Of a stretch of DNA of 64,000 bases, positions 47,417 to 53,634 are shown in pieces. Positions within the stretch are counted from its first letter, which is position 1; every line of letters starts with the position of its first letter. The position numbers and the translations under genes are program-made. The stretch is from the NCBI GenBank assembly GCA_002422525.1, contig DIWA01000026.1, forward strand, positions 264,843 to 328,842, given 5' to 3'. Origin of the DNA: Candidatus Hydrogenedentes bacterium UBA6118. GTDB lineage: Bacteria > Hydrogenedentota > Hydrogenedentia > Hydrogenedentales > SLHB01. Under the pieces are notes generated by a model. That model was not told the DNA's origin. It did not search any database and was given only the letters and a program-made list of their open reading frames with translations.

Positions 47417-47782
47417 ATGGCAATCATCGTGGTCATAGAAGACGAGCCGGTCTTGCGGCTGACGTTTCGGCACATTCTCGAAGCCGAAGGGCACGAAGTG
47501 TGGGAGGCCGACAACGGCCGTACGGGACTCGCCCTCTGCCGCAGCAAGCGGCCCGACCTCGTTATCACCGACCTGATCATGCCCGAGCTGACCGGCGCCG
47601 AGGCCGTGACCATCCTCGACCGCGAACTCCCGAACACCCCGGTCATCGCGATGTCCGGCATGGAATCCGACGTGCCGGAGGAGATCGCCGAGCGGACCGC
47701 GCGGTTCCGGTTCGTGCTCAAGCCCGTGAAGCCGCAGACCCTGCGCACCCTCGTCGGTACAATGCTCGCGCCGGGCGCGTGA
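47417..47782 (+). CDS. single-domain response regulator (CheY-like receiver)
   Basis: IIVVIEDEP, DLVITDLIMPELTG, IAMSG. Confidence 0.75.
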   Translation: MAIIVVIEDEPVLRLTFRHILEAEGHEVWEADNGRTGLALCRSKRPDLVITDLIMPELTGAEAVTILDRELPNTPVIAMSGMESDVPEEIAERTARFRFVLKPVKPQTLRTLVGTMLAPGA

Positions 47783-47956
47783 GCCCAAGCGCCGGCGCGC
47801 CGCTGCAGACCGCCCTCCCGACGGATCCCATGTGTCCCGTTTGACGTCCGACCGTCCCCGTGCTACGGTGCGGACGCCCGCGCGCACGGGCCAGATCGCG
47901 GACCGAGTGCGCGGCGCGCCGACCGGTCGGCGGAGTGAAGGGGGTTTGACGCACGC

Positions 47957-48706
47957 ATGGTATCCACCTGGGTCGTGACGCCGTGCTACAACGAAGAGCG
48001 GCGCTTGCCCGTGAAGGCGTTCGAGGCCTATCTGGCCGAGCGCGATGACGTCGGGTTCTGCTTCGTCGACGCCAACAGCGACGACGACACGGGGCCGCTT
48101 CTGCGCGAGATCGTTGCGCGCCATCCGGACCGCACCGCGTTCACCGCCACGCCGGGACGCCACGGCAAAGCCCAGGCCGTCCGCGCGGGCGTGTTGCACG
48201 CATGCGAACTGCCCGGGGTCGAGCGCATCGGCTACTGGGACGCCGACCTGGCCGCCCCGCTCTCGGAAGTCACCCGCTTCATCGCGCTGTTCCACGAGCG
48301 GCCGGAAGTCCGGTTCGTCTGCGGCGCGCGCGTGCGACGGCTCGGCGCGCGGATCGCACGGCCCGCCGTACGCCGCTATCTCGGCCGCGCATTCGCCACC
48401 GCCGCCGGACGCCTCCTCCACATGCCCGTGTACGACACGCAGTGCGGCGCGAAGATGCTGGACGCCGCGCTCGCCGCCGAGCTCTTCGCGGAACCCTTCC
48501 TCTCACAATGGGTGTTCGACGTCGAGCTGCTCGCCCGGGCCCGACGCCGCTTGGGCGACGCCTTCCCCGAGGCCGTCGTCGAGCTGCCGCTGGAGGCGTG
48601 GGAAGAGGTCGCGGGATCGCGGCTTCGGCCAATCGACTTCCTCTGGGCCGGCGTACAGCTCGTGCGCATCGCCGCGAAGTACCGCCGTCCCGCGGCGCGA
48701 GATTAG
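47957..48706 (+). CDS. family-2 glycosyltransferase (ArnC/GtrB/DPM1-like polyprenyl-phosphate sugar synthase)
   Basis: VVTPCYNEE, FVDANSDD, YWDADL. Confidence 0.75.
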   Translation: MVSTWVVTPCYNEERRLPVKAFEAYLAERDDVGFCFVDANSDDDTGPLLREIVARHPDRTAFTATPGRHGKAQAVRAGVLHACELPGVERIGYWDADLAAPLSEVTRFIALFHERPEVRFVCGARVRRLGARIARPAVRRYLGRAFATAAGRLLHMPVYDTQCGAKMLDAALAAELFAEPFLSQWVFDVELLARARRRLGDAFPEAVVELPLEAWEEVAGSRLRPIDFLWAGVQLVRIAAKYRRPAARD

Positions 48707-48786
48707 CGGAACCTTCCCGCCTCTGCTATCATGCGCGCGCTCTGCGGCGGGCAACCGCGGACCAACCGGCCGGAGGTTCACAGCGC

Positions 48787-49590
48787 GTGGTCTACATCAA
48801 AGCGATTCTGCTCGGCATTGTTGAAGGCTTCACGGAATTCCTGCCAATCAGCAGCACAGGCCACCTGGTGCTCGTCGAGGACTACCTGAGCCTCGACCAG
48901 GGCCAAGCGTTCACCAACACCTTCCACGTGGCCATCCAGTTGCCCGCCATCGCGGCGGTCGTGGTGTACTTCTGGTCACGGCTCTGGCCGTTCAGCGGGC
49001 CCCGTGAGGCGCAACGCCAACGGCTGCTGCTCTGGACGAAGATCATCGTCGCCGTGCTGCCCGCCATCGTGCTGGGACTGCTGTTCGACGACCTGATCGA
49101 GGCCCATCTGCTCTCCCCGGTCCCCGTGGCGATCGCCCTGCTGGTCGGCGGGATCATCCTGATCGCCATCGAGCGCCGGCATTCGGTCGCCCGCCTGACC
49201 ACGACGGAAGCCCTGCCGTACCTCACCGCGCTATGGATCGGCTTCTTCCAGTGCCTGGCCATGATACCCGGCACTTCGCGCTCTGCGTCGACCATCATCG
49301 GCGCGATGCTGCTCGGGGCGTCCCGGCCCGTCGCGGCGGAGTTCTCCTTCTTCCTGGCGATCCCCACCATGCTCGGCGCGACCACGCTCACCCTGGCCAA
49401 GCACAGCGGCGGGTTCACCCCGCGGCAGTGGGCCCTGCTGGCCATCGGCGGCATCGTGTCGTTCGTCACCGCCTATGCGGTCATCGCCGCATTCATGGGC
49501 TACATTCGCAAGCACGACTTCCAGGTGTTCGGCTACTACCGCATCGTCCTCGGCGCGATCGTACTCCTCGCCTGGCTATTCCGCGGATAG
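48787..49590 (+). CDS. uppP: undecaprenyl-diphosphatase
   Basis: GTG start. LLGIVEGFTEFLPISSTGHL and IPGTSRSASTIIG motifs. 8 TM helices. 267 aa. Confidence 0.85.
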   Translation: MVYIKAILLGIVEGFTEFLPISSTGHLVLVEDYLSLDQGQAFTNTFHVAIQLPAIAAVVVYFWSRLWPFSGPREAQRQRLLLWTKIIVAVLPAIVLGLLFDDLIEAHLLSPVPVAIALLVGGIILIAIERRHSVARLTTTEALPYLTALWIGFFQCLAMIPGTSRSASTIIGAMLLGASRPVAAEFSFFLAIPTMLGATTLTLAKHSGGFTPRQWALLAIGGIVSFVTAYAVIAAFMGYIRKHDFQVFGYYRIVLGAIVLLAWLFRG

Positions 49591-49607
49591 GCGCACCGAC
49601 GCGCCGC

Positions 49608-51767
49608 TCAGTAGCGCCCTTCAGGAACCAGTTCCAGACCGGTGTACCCGGAGAGCTGGTTGATCGTGAAGCTCTTGACCACGGTGTGCCCGCGCTTCAC
49701 GTCGTACGTGCCCAGGCACATGCCCTCTTCGAACACCCCGTTCTGCACGAGAAACTCGATCCACATCCGCGCCCGCTCCGCGTCGCCGCCCGTGACGAAC
49801 AGCCCGTCGCGTCCGACCAGCTCCTCCCAGCCGCCCCAGAGGTCGTACTGGTTCATGCGGCGCTGAATCGGGATGCAGTACGCGCGCGGACGCCCCGGCG
49901 CGTAGAACGCGAGCCACGCGGTGAGCTGGTAGCGATCGCTGAACAGGAACGGCCCCTCGTCGGGGTCATAGTCCAGCGCTTCCAGCGCGGCGCCCAGCTC
50001 GCGCCCGCCCCGCAGCTTGTTCGTCGGGTCGTCGTCCGGATCGATCTCCATCCCGAGCAGATGGAGACGATCGTCGCGTTCATCCAGGCTCGGTTCGGCC
50101 CCGAGCAGGTAGATCACGTCCGTGGACCGCGCCGCCGCGCCGAGCAGGCACCCCAACGCGATCCCGGCGGCCAGCAGCCGTGTCATCCCGCGCCCGCGAG
50201 GGCGCTGCACCCAGGCCCAGCCGAGGGCGATGGCCGCGGCCGGATACGCCGCCACGGGCCAGTTCGCCTGCGGCGGCCGCGTGAACGACACGACCAGGTA
50301 GAACGCGAACAGCACGCCGAAGCACAGGAGCAGGTAGGCCGCATCGCGATCCGCCCGCGCCTTGCGCGCGCATTGCCACACCGCCCACGCGAACAAGCCG
50401 AACAGGATCGGCGACACCACGCCCCCCGCCTGCGCGCCAAGGAACTCGGCGACCTGCGCCAACGACCGGCCGAGCGACCAGCCGCCCTCATCCAGGCCGA
50501 TCGCGGCGGTGTGGCGGAACGACACCCAGTCGTGCTGCGCGTTCCAGTAGATCACGCCGGTCTGCAGCGCGACCGCGATCAACAGCGCGAGCCACGGCCC
50601 GCGCGTGCGGAGACTGCGTCGGTCCACGAGGATCAGGTACAGCGCGAAGCTCAGGAGCAGCACGGCCATGGTGAACTTGGACAGCATGCCCAGCCCCAAC
50701 GCCGCGCCCGTGAGCGCCCACATGCCGCGCTCGCCCGCCGCCGCACGGTGGAACGCGTACATCGCCAACAGCCAGAAGAACACCAGGATCGGGTCGATCG
50801 TGATGAGCGCAGACCCGACCCACGTCGCGGGCATGGCCAACGCCGCAATCGCCGCCACGAGCGCCGCCCGTTCGCTCTGCGCGATCCGCAACGTCAGCGC
50901 GTAGACCAGCGCGAGCGCCCCCGCGGACAGGAGCATCGCCGCGCTGCGAATCGCCGTTTCGTTGTTGCCCCCCGCGCTGGCGAAGATGCCAATGACATAG
51001 GCCACCATCGGCGGTTTGCTGTAGTAACAGAGGTCGAGCCGGCGCGACCAGTCCCAGTACTGCGCCTCGTCGCCCGCCAAGTCGAACACGCCGAGGTAGA
51101 GGAACGCGAAGGTCGACGCGACCCAGATCCCCAAGATCCAATGGAAAACCTTCCGCTCGGGCGCATAGCTCGGTCGGGCCGTCTCGGGCGCTCCCGGCGG
51201 ACCCCAGATCCGCGCCACGAGCCAGAACGCGCACCGGTAGGCTGCGTACCCCGCCGCGGCGCCCCATGCATATCCCGCCAACACCTGGCTGGGGTAGTGG
51301 TTGCCCGTGTAGACCCGCGAAAGCCCCACCATCAGCGCGATCGGCACGCACAACCACGCCGTCCGCCGTCGGACAAGGAACAGCACGACCGCCGCGGCCG
51401 CCGCGTTGGCCGCGTGCGACGAAGGCATGCCATGGCTCTTTCGGTTGTCGAACGGGTACCACTCCGACTGGTACACGATCCACTGCCCGCTCCGGTGCAG
51501 ATGCACCGAGTCTTCCCGGGCATACGGGCGCTCCTGCTGAAACAACGGCTTGAAGACGCGCTCCGATCCCAAGTCCGCCGCCGCCGCCGCCAACACGACC
51601 GCGAGAACCACGGTCCGCGCATGGCGCCCGCCGAAGTAGCACACCAGCGCCGCCGCCAGCGCGCCCGGAATCACCACATAGTTCTTGTCCGAGAACACCG
51701 GCATGACCGCATCGAGCAGCGGAGATCGGAGGGTGTCATTGATGAAATGAAACAGCCACGCATCCAT
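49608..51767 (-). CDS. fusion protein: N-terminal PAP2 lipid phosphatase + C-terminal GT83/ArnT-PMT-like polyprenyl-phosphate-sugar-dependent glycosyltransferase
   Basis: PAP2 motifs KPLFQQERPY, PSSHAANAAA, SRVYTGNHYPSQV. ArnT-like DEAQYWDWSRRLDLCYYSKPPMVAYV followed by ~10 TM helices and a periplasmic C-terminal domain. Confidence 0.75.
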   Translation of the reverse strand: MDAWLFHFINDTLRSPLLDAVMPVFSDKNYVVIPGALAAALVCYFGGRHARTVVLAVVLAAAAADLGSERVFKPLFQQERPYAREDSVHLHRSGQWIVYQSEWYPFDNRKSHGMPSSHAANAAAAAVVLFLVRRRTAWLCVPIALMVGLSRVYTGNHYPSQVLAGYAWGAAAGYAAYRCAFWLVARIWGPPGAPETARPSYAPERKVFHWILGIWVASTFAFLYLGVFDLAGDEAQYWDWSRRLDLCYYSKPPMVAYVIGIFASAGGNNETAIRSAAMLLSAGALALVYALTLRIAQSERAALVAAIAALAMPATWVGSALITIDPILVFFWLLAMYAFHRAAAGERGMWALTGAALGLGMLSKFTMAVLLLSFALYLILVDRRSLRTRGPWLALLIAVALQTGVIYWNAQHDWVSFRHTAAIGLDEGGWSLGRSLAQVAEFLGAQAGGVVSPILFGLFAWAVWQCARKARADRDAAYLLLCFGVLFAFYLVVSFTRPPQANWPVAAYPAAAIALGWAWVQRPRGRGMTRLLAAGIALGCLLGAAARSTDVIYLLGAEPSLDERDDRLHLLGMEIDPDDDPTNKLRGGRELGAALEALDYDPDEGPFLFSDRYQLTAWLAFYAPGRPRAYCIPIQRRMNQYDLWGGWEELVGRDGLFVTGGDAERARMWIEFLVQNGVFEEGMCLGTYDVKRGHTVVKSFTINQLSGYTGLELVPEGRY

Positions 51768-51810
51768 GCGCGCGAGTATACGGAAACCCGTAGAGACGAT
51801 CCACGAACGG

Positions 51811-51927
51811 CCCTGCCCCGCGTCCCATGCCGGTTACCCGTAGGGGCGATTCACGAATCGCCCAGCCCCGCGTCCCCCCGATCACCGTAGGGGCGATTCA
51901 CGAATCGCCCCATTGACGAATCGCCCC
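51811..51927. repeat. two ~48-bp tandem repeats, each containing a perfect 20-22-bp palindrome GGGGCGATTCACGAATCGCCCC (plus a degenerate third copy)
   Basis: Read directly from the sequence. Palindrome centres lie ~84 and ~131 bp upstream of the PAP2-GT83 ATG and just 3' of ssrA. No T-run follows. Confidence 0.5.
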
Positions 51928-51974
51928 ATTCTATGCGAATGGCTCCGACTTGCCAGCCGAAGCCTTGGCGAAAA

Positions 51975-52331
51975 TGGTGGAGGCGGCGGGAATCGAACCC
52001 GCGTCCGAAGGTGCATCGACGTAAGCGTCTACGTGTGTAGCCCGTCCTTTAGGATTCGCCGCCTTGGACCGCGTCGGGCTCGCTGACCAAGGCCGCTAGG
52101 CGGAGGACGTACTCTCCACCGACGGCTCCGCCGTCCCTCGGCTTCGAGGCCTGCTGTCGACGCCTTAGCCCCCTAGCAGGCGGTCAGGGGTAAGACGGGA
52201 GGCCTAAGTTAGGCCGCCATTGCCAAAGGTTCGTTGGCAGTTGTGAAATGATCGGCTTTTTACGAGGCCAGCCGACCAACCTCGACACGCAACTCACGCT
52301 TCATCACCCCCGTCGAAACCTTGTCGCCCCC
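51975..52331 (-). ncRNA. ssrA: tmRNA (transfer-messenger RNA)
   Basis: 5' GGGGGCGACAAGGTTTCGACGGGGG and 3' GGGTTCGATTCCCGCCGCCTCCACCA. Internal tag ORF GCC AAC GAA CCT TTG GCA ATG GCG GCC TAA encodes ANEPLAMAA. Confidence 0.8.
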
Positions 52332-52524
52332 ACTTGAAGGGAAGGCCGGGCGCGGTGAACCGCCGCGCCGAAGGGGAAATCGCGCTGTCCATAGTATGCC
52401 ATACACGCCCACGGAACGCCAATCGCCCCGACCCGACGAAGTTCGCGTTCAGTCTCCGCATACCCGTAGGATAGGGACTCCGCGTCGGGCGGAGAGGCGC
52501 ACGGAGCGCAGGGAGGCCGGAGAT

Positions 52525-53634
52525 ATGTGGCAGCGAGTGGTGTTGGCGAGCGTGTTGGCGACGGCGTCCGCGTCGGCGCAGGAAACGGCGGACGTTCCGG
52601 CGCAGGCCGCCCCGGACCGCGGGGACGATATCCTGGTCGGCGTGTCGTACTTCGCCGGGTGGTGGGAAGCGCAGCCGAACAAGTGGACCCGCCGCGACGG
52701 GTCCGACTGGCGTCCCGACTTCCCCGAGCGGATCCCGGTACTGGGCCAGTACAACGCGCAGGACGTGATGAACCGCGAGATCGTCGCCGCGGCCGAGTAC
52801 GGGGTCGACTTCTTCATGATCCTGTGGTACCCGAAGCCGGGCGGCGAGCACCCGGAGCCGAACGCGGCGAACCTCGAACGCGGGCTGCTCGACTTCATGG
52901 CCTCCCCCGAGGCGCACCGCATGAAGTTCATGGTCGAGTTCTGCAACCACCGCCCCTACAACGTGCGCACGGATGAAGACTGGGAAGCCTGCATCGAGGT
53001 CTTCCTCAAGGCCTTCGCCCATCCGAGTCATCTTCGCATCGACGGCAAGATCCCCATCAAGGTCCACAGCTCGTGGGACTTCTATCGCGACGCGGATGAG
53101 GATGTAGAAGTCTGCCGGGCGCGGATCGAGCGGCTGCGCGAGGCCGCGCGCGACGCCGGTCTGGGCGAGCTGCTCGTAGGCGTCGGCGTCGGCGGCCAAG
53201 GGGCGATCGGTCCGGACAACTGGGTCGTGGGCATGTTCGACTGGACCGGCACGTACATGGACCTGCCGCAGCTCGAGCAGCGGGAGGAAGACTACCCCTA
53301 CGAAGAGCTCACGGGGTTCGCGCGGACGGGCCGTCTCATGCACGCCCAGGGGCCGCTGCCGTACGTGCCTTACCTGCCGTCGGGCTGGAACCCGCGCCCG
53401 TGGTCGGATCCGCGCGCGAGCTTCGCCCTGCCGACGCGGGCGCAATGGACGGCGACGCTCGAGGAGCTGCGGCAAGACCTGATCGCGCAGCCGAACTTGG
53501 GCTTCCCGGGACGCCCGGCGTTCACGATCTACGCCTGGAACGAGTTCGGCGAGGGCGGCATGGTCGCGCCGACCGCGGGCGAGCAGTACATGAAGCTCGA
53601 GGCAATCCGCGACGTGTTCAAGCCCCAGCGCTGA
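52525..53634 (+). CDS. secreted hypothetical protein, putative glycoside hydrolase (TIM-barrel-like)
   Basis: Signal peptide MWQRVVLASVLATASASAQE with a GGGAGG RBS. No confident family. The track ORF starts upstream at TTG 52321, overlapping ssrA. Confidence 0.55.
   Translation: MWQRVVLASVLATASASAQETADVPAQAAPDRGDDILVGVSYFAGWWEAQPNKWTRRDGSDWRPDFPERIPVLGQYNAQDVMNREIVAAAEYGVDFFMILWYPKPGGEHPEPNAANLERGLLDFMASPEAHRMKFMVEFCNHRPYNVRTDEDWEACIEVFLKAFAHPSHLRIDGKIPIKVHSSWDFYRDADEDVEVCRARIERLREAARDAGLGELLVGVGVGGQGAIGPDNWVVGMFDWTGTYMDLPQLEQREEDYPYEELTGFARTGRLMHAQGPLPYVPYLPSGWNPRPWSDPRASFALPTRAQWTATLEELRQDLIAQPNLGFPGRPAFTIYAWNEFGEGGMVAPTAGEQYMKLEAIRDVFKPQR

What the first reader, a model, noticed from the sequence alone, without database searches (positions are those of the whole stretch)
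47417..51767. Envelope glycosylation cluster: response regulator, GT2 polyprenyl-P-sugar synthase, UppP and an unusual PAP2-ArnT/PMT-like fusion
GT2 (47957-48706) and the GT83/ArnT-like transferase form the classical ArnC/ArnT-type pair. They make a polyprenyl-phosphate sugar and transfer it to a periplasmic acceptor. Here the transferase carries an N-terminal PAP2 phosphatase domain with all three PAP2 motifs. UppP, which recycles the lipid carrier, lies between them. A PAP2 fusion suggests coupled dephosphorylation and glycosylation of the acceptor, for example lipid A 1- or 4'-phosphate removal with sugar addition, or carrier recycling. The adjacent single-domain response regulator hints at regulation.
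Basis: partly seen in the sequence, partly recalled or inferred. Interest (0 to 1): 0.6.

Follow-up and report, generated by a model that had tools for sequence, protein, structure and literature searches.

The report
Conserved lipid phosphatase–glycosyltransferase fusion enzyme
One membrane protein of a Hydrogenedentes-like bacterium joins a lipid-phosphate phosphatase to a sugar-transferring enzyme; the pairing recurs, fused or as neighbouring genes, in at least six phyla, so it probably marks an unstudied way of swapping a phosphate for a sugar on an envelope lipid.

Summary
All four genes are real: response regulator 47417-47782(+), GT2 47957-48706(+), UppP 48787-49590(+), and a 719-aa PAP2–GT-C fusion 49608-51767(-).

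The fusion is not an artefact.
- It is one ORF in more than 60 protein clusters from independent assemblies.
- The catalytic residues of both halves are essentially invariant.
- The AlphaFold model is confident (pLDDT 93, pTM 0.90).
- The closest solved structures are Aquifex LpxE for the PAP2 half and ArnT for the GT-C half.
- Helix connectivity puts both active sites on the periplasmic face.

PAP2 and this GT-C subfamily are linked in 54 of 80 species-level loci: 40 fused, 12 adjacent, 2 within 4 kb. One lineage has an operon of GT-C, ArnC-like GT2, flippase-like protein and PAP2.

The "cluster" reading is only partly right.
- The fusion converges on the other three genes and is not co-transcribed with them.
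- The window's GT2 is ALG5-like, not ArnC-like, and accompanies the fusion only in near-identical relatives.
- UppP adjacency recurs in 4 of about 12 Hydrogenedentes lineages.
- Nothing ties the response regulator to the fusion.
- The third PAP2 motif carries Gln instead of the canonical Asp, as in glucose-6-phosphatase.

Most likely function (inferred): remove a phosphate from a periplasmic-leaflet lipid, lipid A being the best candidate, then glycosylate it from a polyprenyl-phosphate sugar. The family is uncharacterised, and I rate it a new variant of a known kind.

The parts
51204..51767 (-). PAP2 (LpxE-like) lipid-phosphate phosphatase domain of the fusion protein, aa 1-188. It has five TM helices (28-45, 48-76, 117-132, 134-153, 159-188). 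Motifs are K73x6R80P81, P115S116SH118 and S150R151x5H157x3Q161. A beta-hairpin insert at 88-99 lies between the first and second motifs.
   Evidence: Pfam PAP2 70.7 bits against a cutoff of 27.2. Family profile against PDB: A. aeolicus LpxE 6EBU, E 2.6e-20 over the whole domain. Foldseek 6EBU TM 0.77, rmsd 3.4. Motif tally; helices from the AF2 model.
51162..51203 (-). Cytoplasmic linker, aa 189-202 (GPPGAPETARPSYA), joining PAP2 TM5 to GT-C TM1.
   Evidence: Lowest-confidence stretch of the AF2 model (block pLDDT about 69) and no secondary structure. Variable and gapped in the alignment. The unfused Hydrogenedentes paralogue P0071 starts here.
49608..51161 (-). ArnT-like GT-C glycosyltransferase module, aa 203-719. 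It comprises a multi-helix TM bundle and a C-terminal periplasmic alpha/beta domain (about aa 556-719). The first periplasmic loop carries D233-E234 and Y248-Y-S-K251-P-P. D325, W408-N409 and N502-W503 are invariant.
   Evidence: Pfam PMT_2 107.6 bits, PMT 51.4 bits. Foldseek best hits are ArnT 5F15/5EZM, E 1.5e-8, TM 0.58-0.62. BLASTP against E. coli ArnT aligns D233E234 with D31E32 and YYSKPP with YFEKPI, 26% over 187 aa. Conservation.
48787..49590 (+). uppP/bacA undecaprenyl-diphosphate phosphatase, convergent with the fusion gene.
   Evidence: BacA E 4.5e-84; NCBIfam equivalog NF001391 323.5 bits against a cutoff of 293. Start codon checked. Adjacent to the fusion gene in window, L164, L170 and L086 (convergent) and in L005, L084, L174/L175 (co-directional, 20-82 bp).
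47957..48706 (+). Soluble-type GT2 (249 aa) of the ALG5/DPM1-like family. It is a candidate polyprenyl-phosphate hexose synthase. Its link to the fusion is not established.
   Evidence: Pfam GT2 E 1e-9. Weak NCBIfam hits to PpgS and dolichyl-P hexose transferases, all far below cutoff. Homologues are named dolichyl-phosphate beta-glucosyltransferase by JGI. Motifs WDAD and YDTQCGAK are seen in the sequence. No orthologue next to the fusion in any other locus except L170.
47417..47782 (+). Single-domain response regulator (receiver only; E8/D9, D52, S80, K102 intact).
   Evidence: Response_reg E 7e-22 with no output domain. Residues read from the translation. Kept upstream of GT2 in the 96%-identical locus L170. 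No evidence of a regulatory link.

Best explanation
The 719-aa protein is a bifunctional inner-membrane enzyme. An N-terminal LpxE-like PAP2 lipid-phosphate phosphatase with five TM helices is fused through a short cytoplasmic linker to an ArnT-like GT-C glycosyltransferase. Both active sites face the periplasm.

The most likely mechanism has two steps. The PAP2 domain removes a phosphate monoester from a lipid in the periplasmic leaflet; lipid A 1- or 4'-phosphate is the best candidate. The GT-C domain then transfers a sugar from a polyprenyl-phosphate sugar onto the exposed hydroxyl. This would be a one-polypeptide version of the LpxE/RgtF or LpxF/RgtD pairs.

Shown here: the architecture, its conservation, the fold, the intact catalytic residues, and the repeated genomic coupling of the two modules with each other and, in other lineages, with an ArnC-like GT2 and a flippase-like protein. 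Inferred: topology, order of reactions, and the identity of acceptor and sugar.

The neighbouring UppP plausibly supports the Und-P pool. The neighbouring GT2 is only a candidate donor synthase. The response regulator is unlinked.
For: - Architecture and conservation.
- Structure: AF2 pLDDT 93 and pTM 0.90. That is higher than about 0.72, the ceiling I would expect if only the 515-aa GT-C part were confidently placed; this is my inference.
- Fold: ArnT is the best GT-C match and A. aeolicus LpxE the best PAP2 match.
- Topology: LpxE_AA has a periplasmic N-terminus (PMC6581854). Five TM helices then put the linker in the cytoplasm, and GT-C TM1 brings the D233-E234 loop to the periplasm. The short loops 46-51, 133-135 and the linker are Arg/Lys-rich.
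- Rosetta-stone coupling: 40 fused, 12 adjacent on the same strand, and 2 within 4 kb, out of 80 loci. Fused forms fall in three separate clades of an NJ tree.
- Donor type: an ArnC-like GT2 lies within 3.5 kb in 57 loci and a flippase-like gene in 40. The donor is therefore a polyprenyl monophosphate sugar, and the PAP2 is not needed to recycle the GT-C product.
- Precedent: LpxE/LpxF act before RgtF/RgtD, with RgtE as the GT2 (PMC7663294). Aquifex lipid A carries GalA in place of phosphates (PMC6581854). Aquificae have stand-alone homologues of this GT-C with near-identical motifs.
- The Gln161 variant also occurs in active glucose-6-phosphatase (HFPHQV).
Against: - No biochemical data exist for any member, and the acceptor and sugar are unknown.
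- Akkermansia, which has a 30%-identical fused homologue, makes mono- and bis-phosphorylated, pEtN-modified lipid A. No sugar replacing a phosphate has been reported (PMC11436972, PMC13436333).
- The nearest named sequence families for the PAP2 part are Und-PP phosphatases (SepP, YbjG), not Rhizobium-type LpxE.
- UppP adjacency hints at carrier metabolism.
- The window protein lacks the canonical charge-relay Asp.
- One Hydrogenedentes lineage and many other phyla use the GT-C without an adjacent PAP2.
- In Verrucomicrobia the gene sits among housekeeping genes, which gives no contextual support.
- I could not place RgtD/RgtF in a tree with this GT-C because no sequences were accessible.
Confidence: 0.4

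Rival explanations
1. Carrier-lipid coupling. The PAP2 domain is an undecaprenyl-diphosphate phosphatase, like BcrC, PgpB, YbjG and the second activity of LpxE. It is fused to the GT-C to keep the Und-P pool supplied for the glycosylation pathway. The GT-C acceptor needs no dephosphorylation.
For: - Best NCBIfam hits of the fused and operon PAP2 are Und-PP phosphatases: SepP at 40-57 bits and YbjG at 39 bits.
- LpxE enzymes, including the Aquifex one, also dephosphorylate C55-PP (PMC6581854).
- uppP is directly adjacent in 4 Hydrogenedentes lineages, co-directional with 20-82 bp gaps in three of them.
- Precedents exist: PAP2–DedA fusions read as sequential carrier-cycle steps (bioRxiv 10.1101/2022.02.03.479048), and coupling of PG polymerase with carrier phosphatases (PMC6053597).
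Against: - The co-operonic ArnC-like GT2 implies a monophosphate donor, so the GT-C releases Und-P, not Und-PP.
- A second Und-PP phosphatase (UppP) next door would be redundant.
- All the scores above are far below the equivalog cutoffs.
- This reading does not explain why PAP2 is repeatedly tied to this one GT-C subfamily rather than to GT-C enzymes in general.
Confidence: 0.25
2. The four genes form one regulated envelope-glycosylation module. The response regulator controls the module. The GT2 makes the polyprenyl-P-sugar used by the fusion. UppP recycles the carrier.
For: - The four genes are contiguous here and in the near-identical relatives L164 and L170.
- The GT2 family is annotated as a dolichyl/polyprenyl-P glucosyltransferase, and one homologue sits next to a GT-C.
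- UppP adjacency recurs.
Against: - The fusion is convergent with the other three genes, so there is no shared transcript.
- No GT2 orthologue lies near the fusion in any other locus.
- The GT-C next to the GT2 homologue in L168 is unrelated to this GT-C subfamily.
- Other Hydrogenedentes pair the fusion with a different, ArnC-like GT2.
- No flippase is present in the window.
- The response regulator has no output domain and no conserved link.
Confidence: 0.1
3. LpxT-like or regulatory PAP2. The PAP2 domain acts as a phosphotransferase, moving phosphate from Und-PP to the acceptor, or as a non-hydrolytic lipid-binding and regulatory partner of the GT-C. This would be a covalent version of the LpxT–ArnT interaction.
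For: - The PAP2 protein LpxT co-purifies with ArnT and modulates Ara4N-dependent polymyxin resistance in P. aeruginosa (PMC13142001).
- The window protein has Gln instead of the charge-relay Asp.
Against: - The nucleophile His157 and all phosphate-binding residues are invariant, and 66 of 74 homologues keep the Asp.
- The closest structure is a hydrolase, LpxE.
- No LpxT family hit appeared in NCBIfam.
Confidence: 0.07
4. The fusion is an assembly, frameshift or gene-calling artefact joining two separate genes.
For: Split versions exist in Thermodesulfobacteria (PAP2 gene overlapping the start of the GT-C gene) and in Deltaproteobacteria and Planctomycetes (PAP2 downstream).
Against: - The single ORF appears in more than 60 clusters from independent assemblies and sources.
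- The reading frame runs uninterrupted through a conserved linker.
- AF2 models the two halves as one confident fold.
Confidence: 0.01

Closest known systems
LpxE/LpxF lipid A phosphatases acting with RgtF/RgtD GalA transferases and RgtE (Rhizobium, Mesorhizobium, Caulobacter, Aquifex)
   Same: A PAP2 phosphatase removes a lipid A phosphate. An ArnT-like GT-C then adds a sugar from a polyprenyl-phosphate sugar made by a GT2. All steps occur on the periplasmic face (PMC7663294, PMC6581854). The best solved match of the PAP2 half is Aquifex LpxE. Aquificae carry stand-alone homologues of this GT-C.
   Different: There the phosphatase and transferase are separate proteins and usually unlinked genes. 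Here they are one polypeptide, or adjacent genes in other phyla. Orthology to RgtD/RgtF was not tested. The sugar and acceptor are unknown. The NCBIfam LpxE score is far below cutoff.
ArnC/ArnT/ArnE-F L-Ara4N pathway of E. coli and Salmonella
   Same: GT2, flippase and GT-C logic. ArnT is the best structural match. The DE and (Y/F)xKP motifs align. The GT2 of the related operons is 39% identical to ArnC.
   Different: ArnT adds the sugar onto the lipid A phosphate and needs no phosphatase. The fusion scores 36.5 bits against the 567-bit ArnT cutoff. The window's GT2 is not ArnC-like. There are no Arn sugar-nucleotide genes and no ArnE/F.
Helicobacter pylori LpxE–EptA (adjacent genes acting in sequence); from my own knowledge of Tran et al. 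2004
   Same: A PAP2 lipid A 1-phosphatase is genetically coupled to the periplasmic transferase that then decorates the dephosphorylated position.
   Different: That transferase is a phosphoethanolamine transferase, not a GT-C. The genes are adjacent, not fused.
LpxT–ArnT physical interaction in Pseudomonas aeruginosa (PMC13142001)
   Same: A PAP2-family membrane protein physically associates with an ArnT-type GT-C.
   Different: LpxT is a phosphotransferase that antagonises ArnT, and the association is non-covalent. The fused PAP2 here resembles the hydrolases LpxE and YodM.
PAP2–DedA (UptA) fusions and adjacency (Roney and Rudner, bioRxiv 10.1101/2022.02.03.479048)
   Same: A PAP2 fused to or next to another membrane protein of the polyprenyl-phosphate cycle, used as evidence for sequential steps.
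   Different: The partner there is a transporter and the PAP2 substrate is Und-PP. Here the partner is a glycosyltransferase that releases Und-P.

Membership tests
PAP2 superfamily (PF01569) | Profile match above the curated cutoff | tested here: met
   70.7 bits against 27.2, aa 57-182
PAP2 superfamily | Motifs KX6RP and PSGH | tested here: met
   K73, R80, P81 and S116 in 74/74; H118 in 72/74. The second motif reads PSSH
PAP2 superfamily | Motif SRX5HX3D including the charge-relay Asp | tested here: not met
   S150, R151 and H157 are present, but the Asp is Gln161 in the window protein (D 66, Q 7, A 1 of 74). The same H-x3-Q occurs in glucose-6-phosphatase, so activity is not excluded
LpxE lipid A 1-phosphatase | Equivalog-level sequence match | tested here: not met
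   NF007159 20.2 bits against a cutoff of 177
LpxE lipid A 1-phosphatase | Structural similarity to solved LpxE (A. aeolicus 6EBU) | tested here: met
   Profile E 2.6e-20 over the whole domain. Foldseek TM 0.77, rmsd 3.4, 23% identity
LpxE lipid A 1-phosphatase | Removes the 1-phosphate of lipid A | not testable with these tools
   Needs an enzyme assay or lipid A mass spectrometry
Undecaprenyl-diphosphate phosphatase of PAP2 type (SepP/YbjG/BcrC) | Equivalog-level sequence match | tested here: not met
   SepP NF047884 40.4 bits against a cutoff of 250
GT-C fold, ArnT type (CAZy GT83) | GT-C membrane fold with periplasmic C-terminal domain | tested here: met
   Foldseek top hits ArnT 5F15/5EZM, E 1.5e-8, TM 0.58-0.62
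GT-C fold, ArnT type (CAZy GT83) | Acidic DE pair and (Y/F)xKP motif in the first periplasmic loop | tested here: met
   D233E234 aligns with ArnT D31E32, and YYSKPP with YFEKPI. D233 and E234 in 73/74, K251 in 74/74
ArnT (lipid IVA L-Ara4N transferase) | Equivalog-level sequence match | tested here: not met
   NF009784 36.5 bits against a cutoff of 567. 26% identity over 187 aa to E. coli ArnT. No GT-C chain found by the sequence profile at E<=1
Protein O-mannosyltransferase (GT39) | PMT/PMT_2 profile match | tested here: met
   PMT_2 107.6 bits and PMT 51.4 bits. These profiles also cover ArnT-like enzymes
Protein O-mannosyltransferase (GT39) | Lumenal MIR domain and closest fold to Pmt1/2/4 | tested here: not met
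   No MIR hit. Pmt structures rank below ArnT with partial alignments
ArnC (Und-P Ara4FN transferase), for the GT2 at 47957-48706 | Equivalog match and C-terminal TM helices | tested here: not met
   15.1 bits against a cutoff of 529. 26% over 155 aa and 249 aa against 322 aa for ArnC. By contrast the L102 operon GT2 is 39% identical over the full length
UppP/BacA | Equivalog-level sequence match | tested here: met
   NF001391 323.5 bits against a cutoff of 293; BacA E 4.5e-84
Three-component periplasmic glycosylation system (GT2 + flippase + GT-C) | All three genes together in one locus | tested here: not met
   In the window, the GT2 is convergent and no flippase-like or LAB_N homologue was found. 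The feature is met in related operons such as L102, L114, L090 and L008

The most novel reading that the evidence does not exclude
The PAP2–GT-C protein is a single-polypeptide 'phosphate-for-sugar swap' enzyme that hands the dephosphorylated lipid directly from one active site to the other. On this reading it, together with its split and operon forms, defines a widespread uncharacterised envelope-lipid remodelling pathway. The pathway would span Hydrogenedentota, Verrucomicrobiota (including Akkermansia), Thermodesulfovibrionia, Thermodesulfobacteriota, Desulfobacterota and Planctomycetota, and the fusion would have arisen or been lost at least three times. It predicts phosphate-poor, glycosylated lipid A (or another glycosylated lipid) in these phyla.
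Probability: 0.3. Interest if true: 0.65.

Novelty: new variant of a known kind. Interest (0 to 1): 0.45.

Why it matters
Replacing lipid A phosphates with sugars changes surface charge, resistance to cationic peptides, and recognition by innate immunity. So far it is known only from a few Alphaproteobacteria and Aquifex, where separate enzymes do the two steps.

A conserved fusion, with matching split operons across at least six phyla, gives a genomic marker for where such chemistry, or a related lipid modification, may occur. These phyla include poorly studied environmental lineages and the gut symbiont genus Akkermansia.

The fusion also offers a compact two-domain protein for studying how a lipid phosphatase and a GT-C transferase cooperate. 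If the PAP2 half instead serves the carrier-lipid cycle, the fusion would be a new example of physical coupling between glycan transfer and Und-P homeostasis.

Tried and rejected
- Assembly or annotation artefact: rejected.
- tblastn and phmmer of the window's GT2 against all fetched loci, looking for a conserved GT2–fusion pair. Only weak hits to unrelated GT2s appeared, so the pair is not conserved.
- The GT-C next to the GT2 homologue in L168, and the extra GT-Cs in L165 and L167: different subfamilies.
- The 815-aa GT2-like gene after UppP in L174: unrelated to the window GT2.
- A crude Kyte-Doolittle TM prediction mis-split the Ala-rich helices. I used AF2 helices plus the published LpxE topology instead.
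- A sequence profile against PDB found no GT-C at E<=1; only the fold search linked it to ArnT.
- The afdb50 fold library was unavailable.
- Literature searches for a described PAP2–GT-C fusion, for Akkermansia ArnT and for SepP found nothing relevant.
- The small proteins downstream of unfused or fused Hydrogenedentes genes were tested as cryptic PAP2: no match, they are lipoproteins.
- Neighbour clustering in Verrucomicrobia gave only housekeeping synteny.
- The promoter and terminator scan gave nothing above background of use.
- Limnocylindria (an LPS-less phylum) as evidence against a lipid A acceptor: not used, because that sequence nests inside the Verrucomicrobia clade, which suggests HGT or mis-binning.
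- I could not obtain RgtD/RgtF sequences to test orthology.

Full report
**What is there**

The window is about 68% GC. Between 47.4 and 51.8 kb it holds four real genes.
- On the plus strand: a receiver-only response regulator (47417-47782), a 249-aa GT2 (47957-48706) and uppP/bacA.
- uppP starts at the GTG at 48787, preceded by GGAGG, and ends at 49590.
- On the minus strand: a 719-aa ORF (51767 down to 49608) whose stop lies 17 nt from the uppP stop.
- Upstream of the 719-aa gene lie a tmRNA gene (51975-52331, minus strand) and a short repeat-bearing spacer.

The four genes are therefore not one transcription unit. RR, GT2 and UppP run one way and the fusion converges on them. Flanking genes encode AsnRS, a fucose-isomerase-like protein, GDPD, a BNR sialidase-like protein, a GH2 beta-galactosidase and similar. 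These are housekeeping and glycan catabolism, not envelope synthesis. Homologues are named Candidatus Hydrogenedentes/Hydrogenedentota.

**The fusion is real and conserved**

Pfam finds PAP2 (aa 57-182, 70.7 bits) and PMT_2/PMT (aa 248-408, 107.6 and 51.4 bits) in the one ORF.
- The word-indexed protein search returned about 66 clusters at 48-93% identity with the same length and both domains. It also returned a further set at about 30% identity with the same architecture.
- A full HMMER scan of 1.84 billion cluster representatives gave 984 proteins at E<=1e-30. About 40 of the top 150 align from residue 1-17 to beyond 640, which makes them fused.
- In an alignment of 74 fused proteins, K73, R80, P81, S116, R151 and H157 (PAP2) are invariant.
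- In the same alignment, K251, R274, D325, W408, N409, N502 and W503 (GT-C) are invariant.
- D233 and E234 are each present in 73 of 74, and H118 in 72 of 74.
- The one departure is the last residue of the third PAP2 motif. It is Asp in 66, Gln in 7 (including the window protein and its close relatives) and Ala in 1.
- The same H-x3-Q is found in glucose-6-phosphatase, an active member of the superfamily (alignment). I therefore treat it as a variant, not as inactivation.

**Structure and topology**

AlphaFold2 with the 74-sequence alignment gives pLDDT 93 and pTM 0.90. The only soft spot is the linker at 189-202.
- Foldseek against the PDB ranks ArnT of Cupriavidus metallidurans first for the C-terminal part (5F15/5EZM, E 1.5e-8, TM 0.58-0.62).
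- Aquifex aeolicus LpxE is the best match for the N-terminal part (6EBU, TM 0.77).
- The family profile matches LpxE over the whole PAP2 domain at E 2.6e-20.
- BLASTP against E. coli ArnT aligns D233-E234 with D31-E32 and YYSKPP with YFEKPI, at 26% over 187 aa.

The topology argument runs as follows. The published work on LpxE_AA places its N-terminus in the periplasm (PMC6581854). With the five modelled TM helices, the second and third PAP2 motifs face the periplasm and the linker lies in the cytoplasm. GT-C TM1 (203-225) then brings the DE loop to the periplasm. The short loops I assign to the cytoplasm are Arg/Lys-rich. Both active sites are thus on the periplasmic face. This is inference from connectivity and homology, because the tool gives no coordinates. 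A pTM of 0.90 exceeds what a confidently placed GT-C part alone could give (515/719). This suggests a fixed packing of the two modules, which is also inference.

**The two modules are coupled across phyla**

I classified the 80 best GTDB species loci with HMMs built from the two halves.

| State of PAP2 relative to the GT-C | Loci | Taxa |
|---|---|---|
| Fused | 40 | Hydrogenedentota, many Verrucomicrobiota including Akkermansia, Thermodesulfovibrionales |
| Adjacent, same strand, upstream and overlapping | 3 | Thermodesulfobacteria |
| Adjacent, same strand, downstream | 9 | Deltaproteobacteria, Planctomycetota |
| Within 4 kb | 2 | Planctomycetota |
| GT-C alone | 26 | Aquificae, Bacteroidota, Parachlamydiaceae and others |

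- A metagenomic lineage with about 40% identity to the GT-C half has a conserved operon. Its order is GT-C, GT2, LPG_synthase_TM flippase-like protein, PAP2, then a 260-280 aa protein without a Pfam hit.
- That GT2 is 39% identical to E. coli ArnC over its full length.
- The operon PAP2 matches the fused-PAP2 HMM at about 1e-45.
- An ArnC-like GT2 lies within 3.5 kb of the GT-C in 57 loci and the flippase-like gene in 40. These include the fused loci L008, L046, L165 and L167.
- In a quick NJ tree of GT-C domains, with no support values, fused forms fall in three separate clades interleaved with split and stand-alone forms. Fusion or fission therefore happened more than once.
- One Hydrogenedentes lineage (P0070/P0071) has lost the PAP2 part.

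**The neighbours in the window**

*GT2.* It has the WDAD and YDTQCGAK motifs, and JGI names its family dolichyl-phosphate beta-glucosyltransferase. It is a plausible polyprenyl-P-hexose synthase. It is only distantly related to ArnC and to the GT2s that accompany the fusion elsewhere. It appears next to the fusion only in the 96%-identical locus L170. Its 51% homologue in L168 sits next to a GT-C of another subfamily. Two other Hydrogenedentes place the fusion at the end of an operon of ArnC-like GT2 and ArnT-like GT-C genes; L165 has two such GT-Cs flanking a LAB_N gene, L167 has one.

*UppP.* This is the most recurrent neighbour in Hydrogenedentes. It is convergent in window, L164, L170 and L086. 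It is co-directional, 20-82 bp downstream, in L005, L084 and L174/L175. It is absent in eight other lineages.

*Response regulator.* It has intact phospho-acceptor residues but no output domain and no conserved association.

**Mechanism**

The operon evidence says the donor is a polyprenyl monophosphate sugar. It is made by a GT2, flipped, and used by the GT-C in the periplasm. That reaction releases Und-P, so a pyrophosphatase is not needed to recycle its product.

PAP2 enzymes act on lipid phosphate esters in the outer leaflet. The most economical role for a PAP2 tied to this GT-C is therefore to prepare the acceptor, removing a phosphate so that a sugar can be attached.

This is exactly the logic of LpxE/RgtF and LpxF/RgtD with RgtE (PMC7663294), and of Aquifex lipid A, where GalA replaces both phosphates (PMC6581854). 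I therefore favour a fused lipid A phosphatase and glycosyltransferase, or one acting on another envelope lipid, at 0.4.

The main rival, at 0.25, is that the PAP2 half is an Und-PP phosphatase serving carrier supply.
- For it: LpxE enzymes also hydrolyse C55-PP, the nearest named families are Und-PP phosphatases, UppP is a recurrent neighbour, and PAP2–DedA fusions set a precedent.
- Against the lipid A model as a general rule: Akkermansia has a fused homologue, but its lipid A is mono- or bis-phosphorylated and pEtN-modified, with no sugar in place of phosphate reported.

**Comparison and novelty**

The parts are known families. The protein fails equivalog-level tests for ArnT, LpxE and SepP while meeting the fold and motif tests.

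I found no paper describing this fusion. The protein sources that name it (NCBI, JGI) call it 'glycosyltransferase family 39 protein', 'phosphatase PAP2 family protein' or 'membrane-associated phospholipid phosphatase'.

I rate it a new variant of a known kind: a covalent, widely distributed form of a two-enzyme logic known from a few organisms. Its acceptor and sugar are still unknown. Interest is moderate (0.45). The fusion is real and gives a clear experimental handle, but the gene 'cluster' around it is mostly coincidental and the function remains inferred.

Noticed in passing
window 51975-52331 (-): A tmRNA (ssrA) gene with tag peptide ANEPLAMAA lies directly upstream of the fusion gene. 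In the 93%-identical relative L164 the upstream genes are TetR, FMN_red, DsrE and AhpC instead, so synteny breaks at ssrA.
   Followed up: partly
window 51800-51930 (-): Two exact copies of a palindromic 24-mer, GGGCGATTCGTGAATCGCCCCTAC, lie at 51840-51863 and 51887-51910, with 0 expected by chance. A degenerate third copy is nearby. All sit in the spacer between ssrA and the fusion start. A sigma-70-like match (51956-51928) lies just upstream of them, next to the ssrA 3' end.
   Followed up: partly
window 52321-53634 (+): The listed ORF overlaps the 5' end of ssrA. The likely true start is near 52525, where a signal-peptide-like MWQRVVLASVLATASASAQ begins. It has a weak WbsX hit. WbsX+GH99 genes also lie about 3 kb from the unfused GT-C paralogue in L171 and L172.
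   Followed up: no
L102 6713-11785; also L090, L114, L103, L104 and others: A conserved operon in an unidentified high-GC lineage, downstream of purH, purD and purE. Its order is ArnT-like GT-C, ArnC-like GT2, LPG_synthase_TM flippase-like protein, PAP2, then a 260-280 aa protein with no Pfam or NCBIfam hit.
   Followed up: partly
L171 4178-8367, L172 4178-8394: One Hydrogenedentes lineage has the GT-C without PAP2. A heparinase II/III-like gene ends 3 bp before it and a small lipoprotein follows it.
   Followed up: partly
L165 547-8172; L167 3692-8121: In these Hydrogenedentes operons a short ArnC-like GT2 is followed by one or two classical ArnT-like GT-Cs (plus a LAB_N protein in L165) and then the PAP2–GT-C fusion. 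This suggests several periplasmic glycosylations fed by one donor synthase.
   Followed up: partly
Verrucomicrobiota loci L011-L081: The fused gene sits in conserved housekeeping synteny. An APRT-like gene and a sigma-70-like gene lie upstream. An OGG-like DNA glycosylase (0-17 bp away or overlapping) and a ComB-like phosphatase lie downstream. These neighbour names rest only on my reading of the sequences; no profile search was run.
   Followed up: no
L057 (labelled Limnocylindria), L013 and L027 (labelled Bifidobacterium/Bifidobacteriaceae MAGs): These fused genes group with Verrucomicrobia sequences: L057, L013 and L027 all nest inside that clade of the GT-C tree. This suggests mis-binned contigs or horizontal transfer.
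   Followed up: no
L035 7997-12175: My ORF extraction gives a 1393-aa frame with PAP2 at aa 669-840. It is either a long N-terminal extension or simply an upstream stretch with no stop codon. I did not resolve this.
   Followed up: no
window aa 81-106 of the fusion (nt about 51450-51527): Hydrogenedentes fused proteins carry an insert of about 20-25 aa between the first and second PAP2 motifs. It is modelled as a beta-hairpin (88-99). It is absent from Aquifex LpxE and shorter in the Verrucomicrobia homologues. It may be an interface or acceptor-binding element.
   Followed up: no
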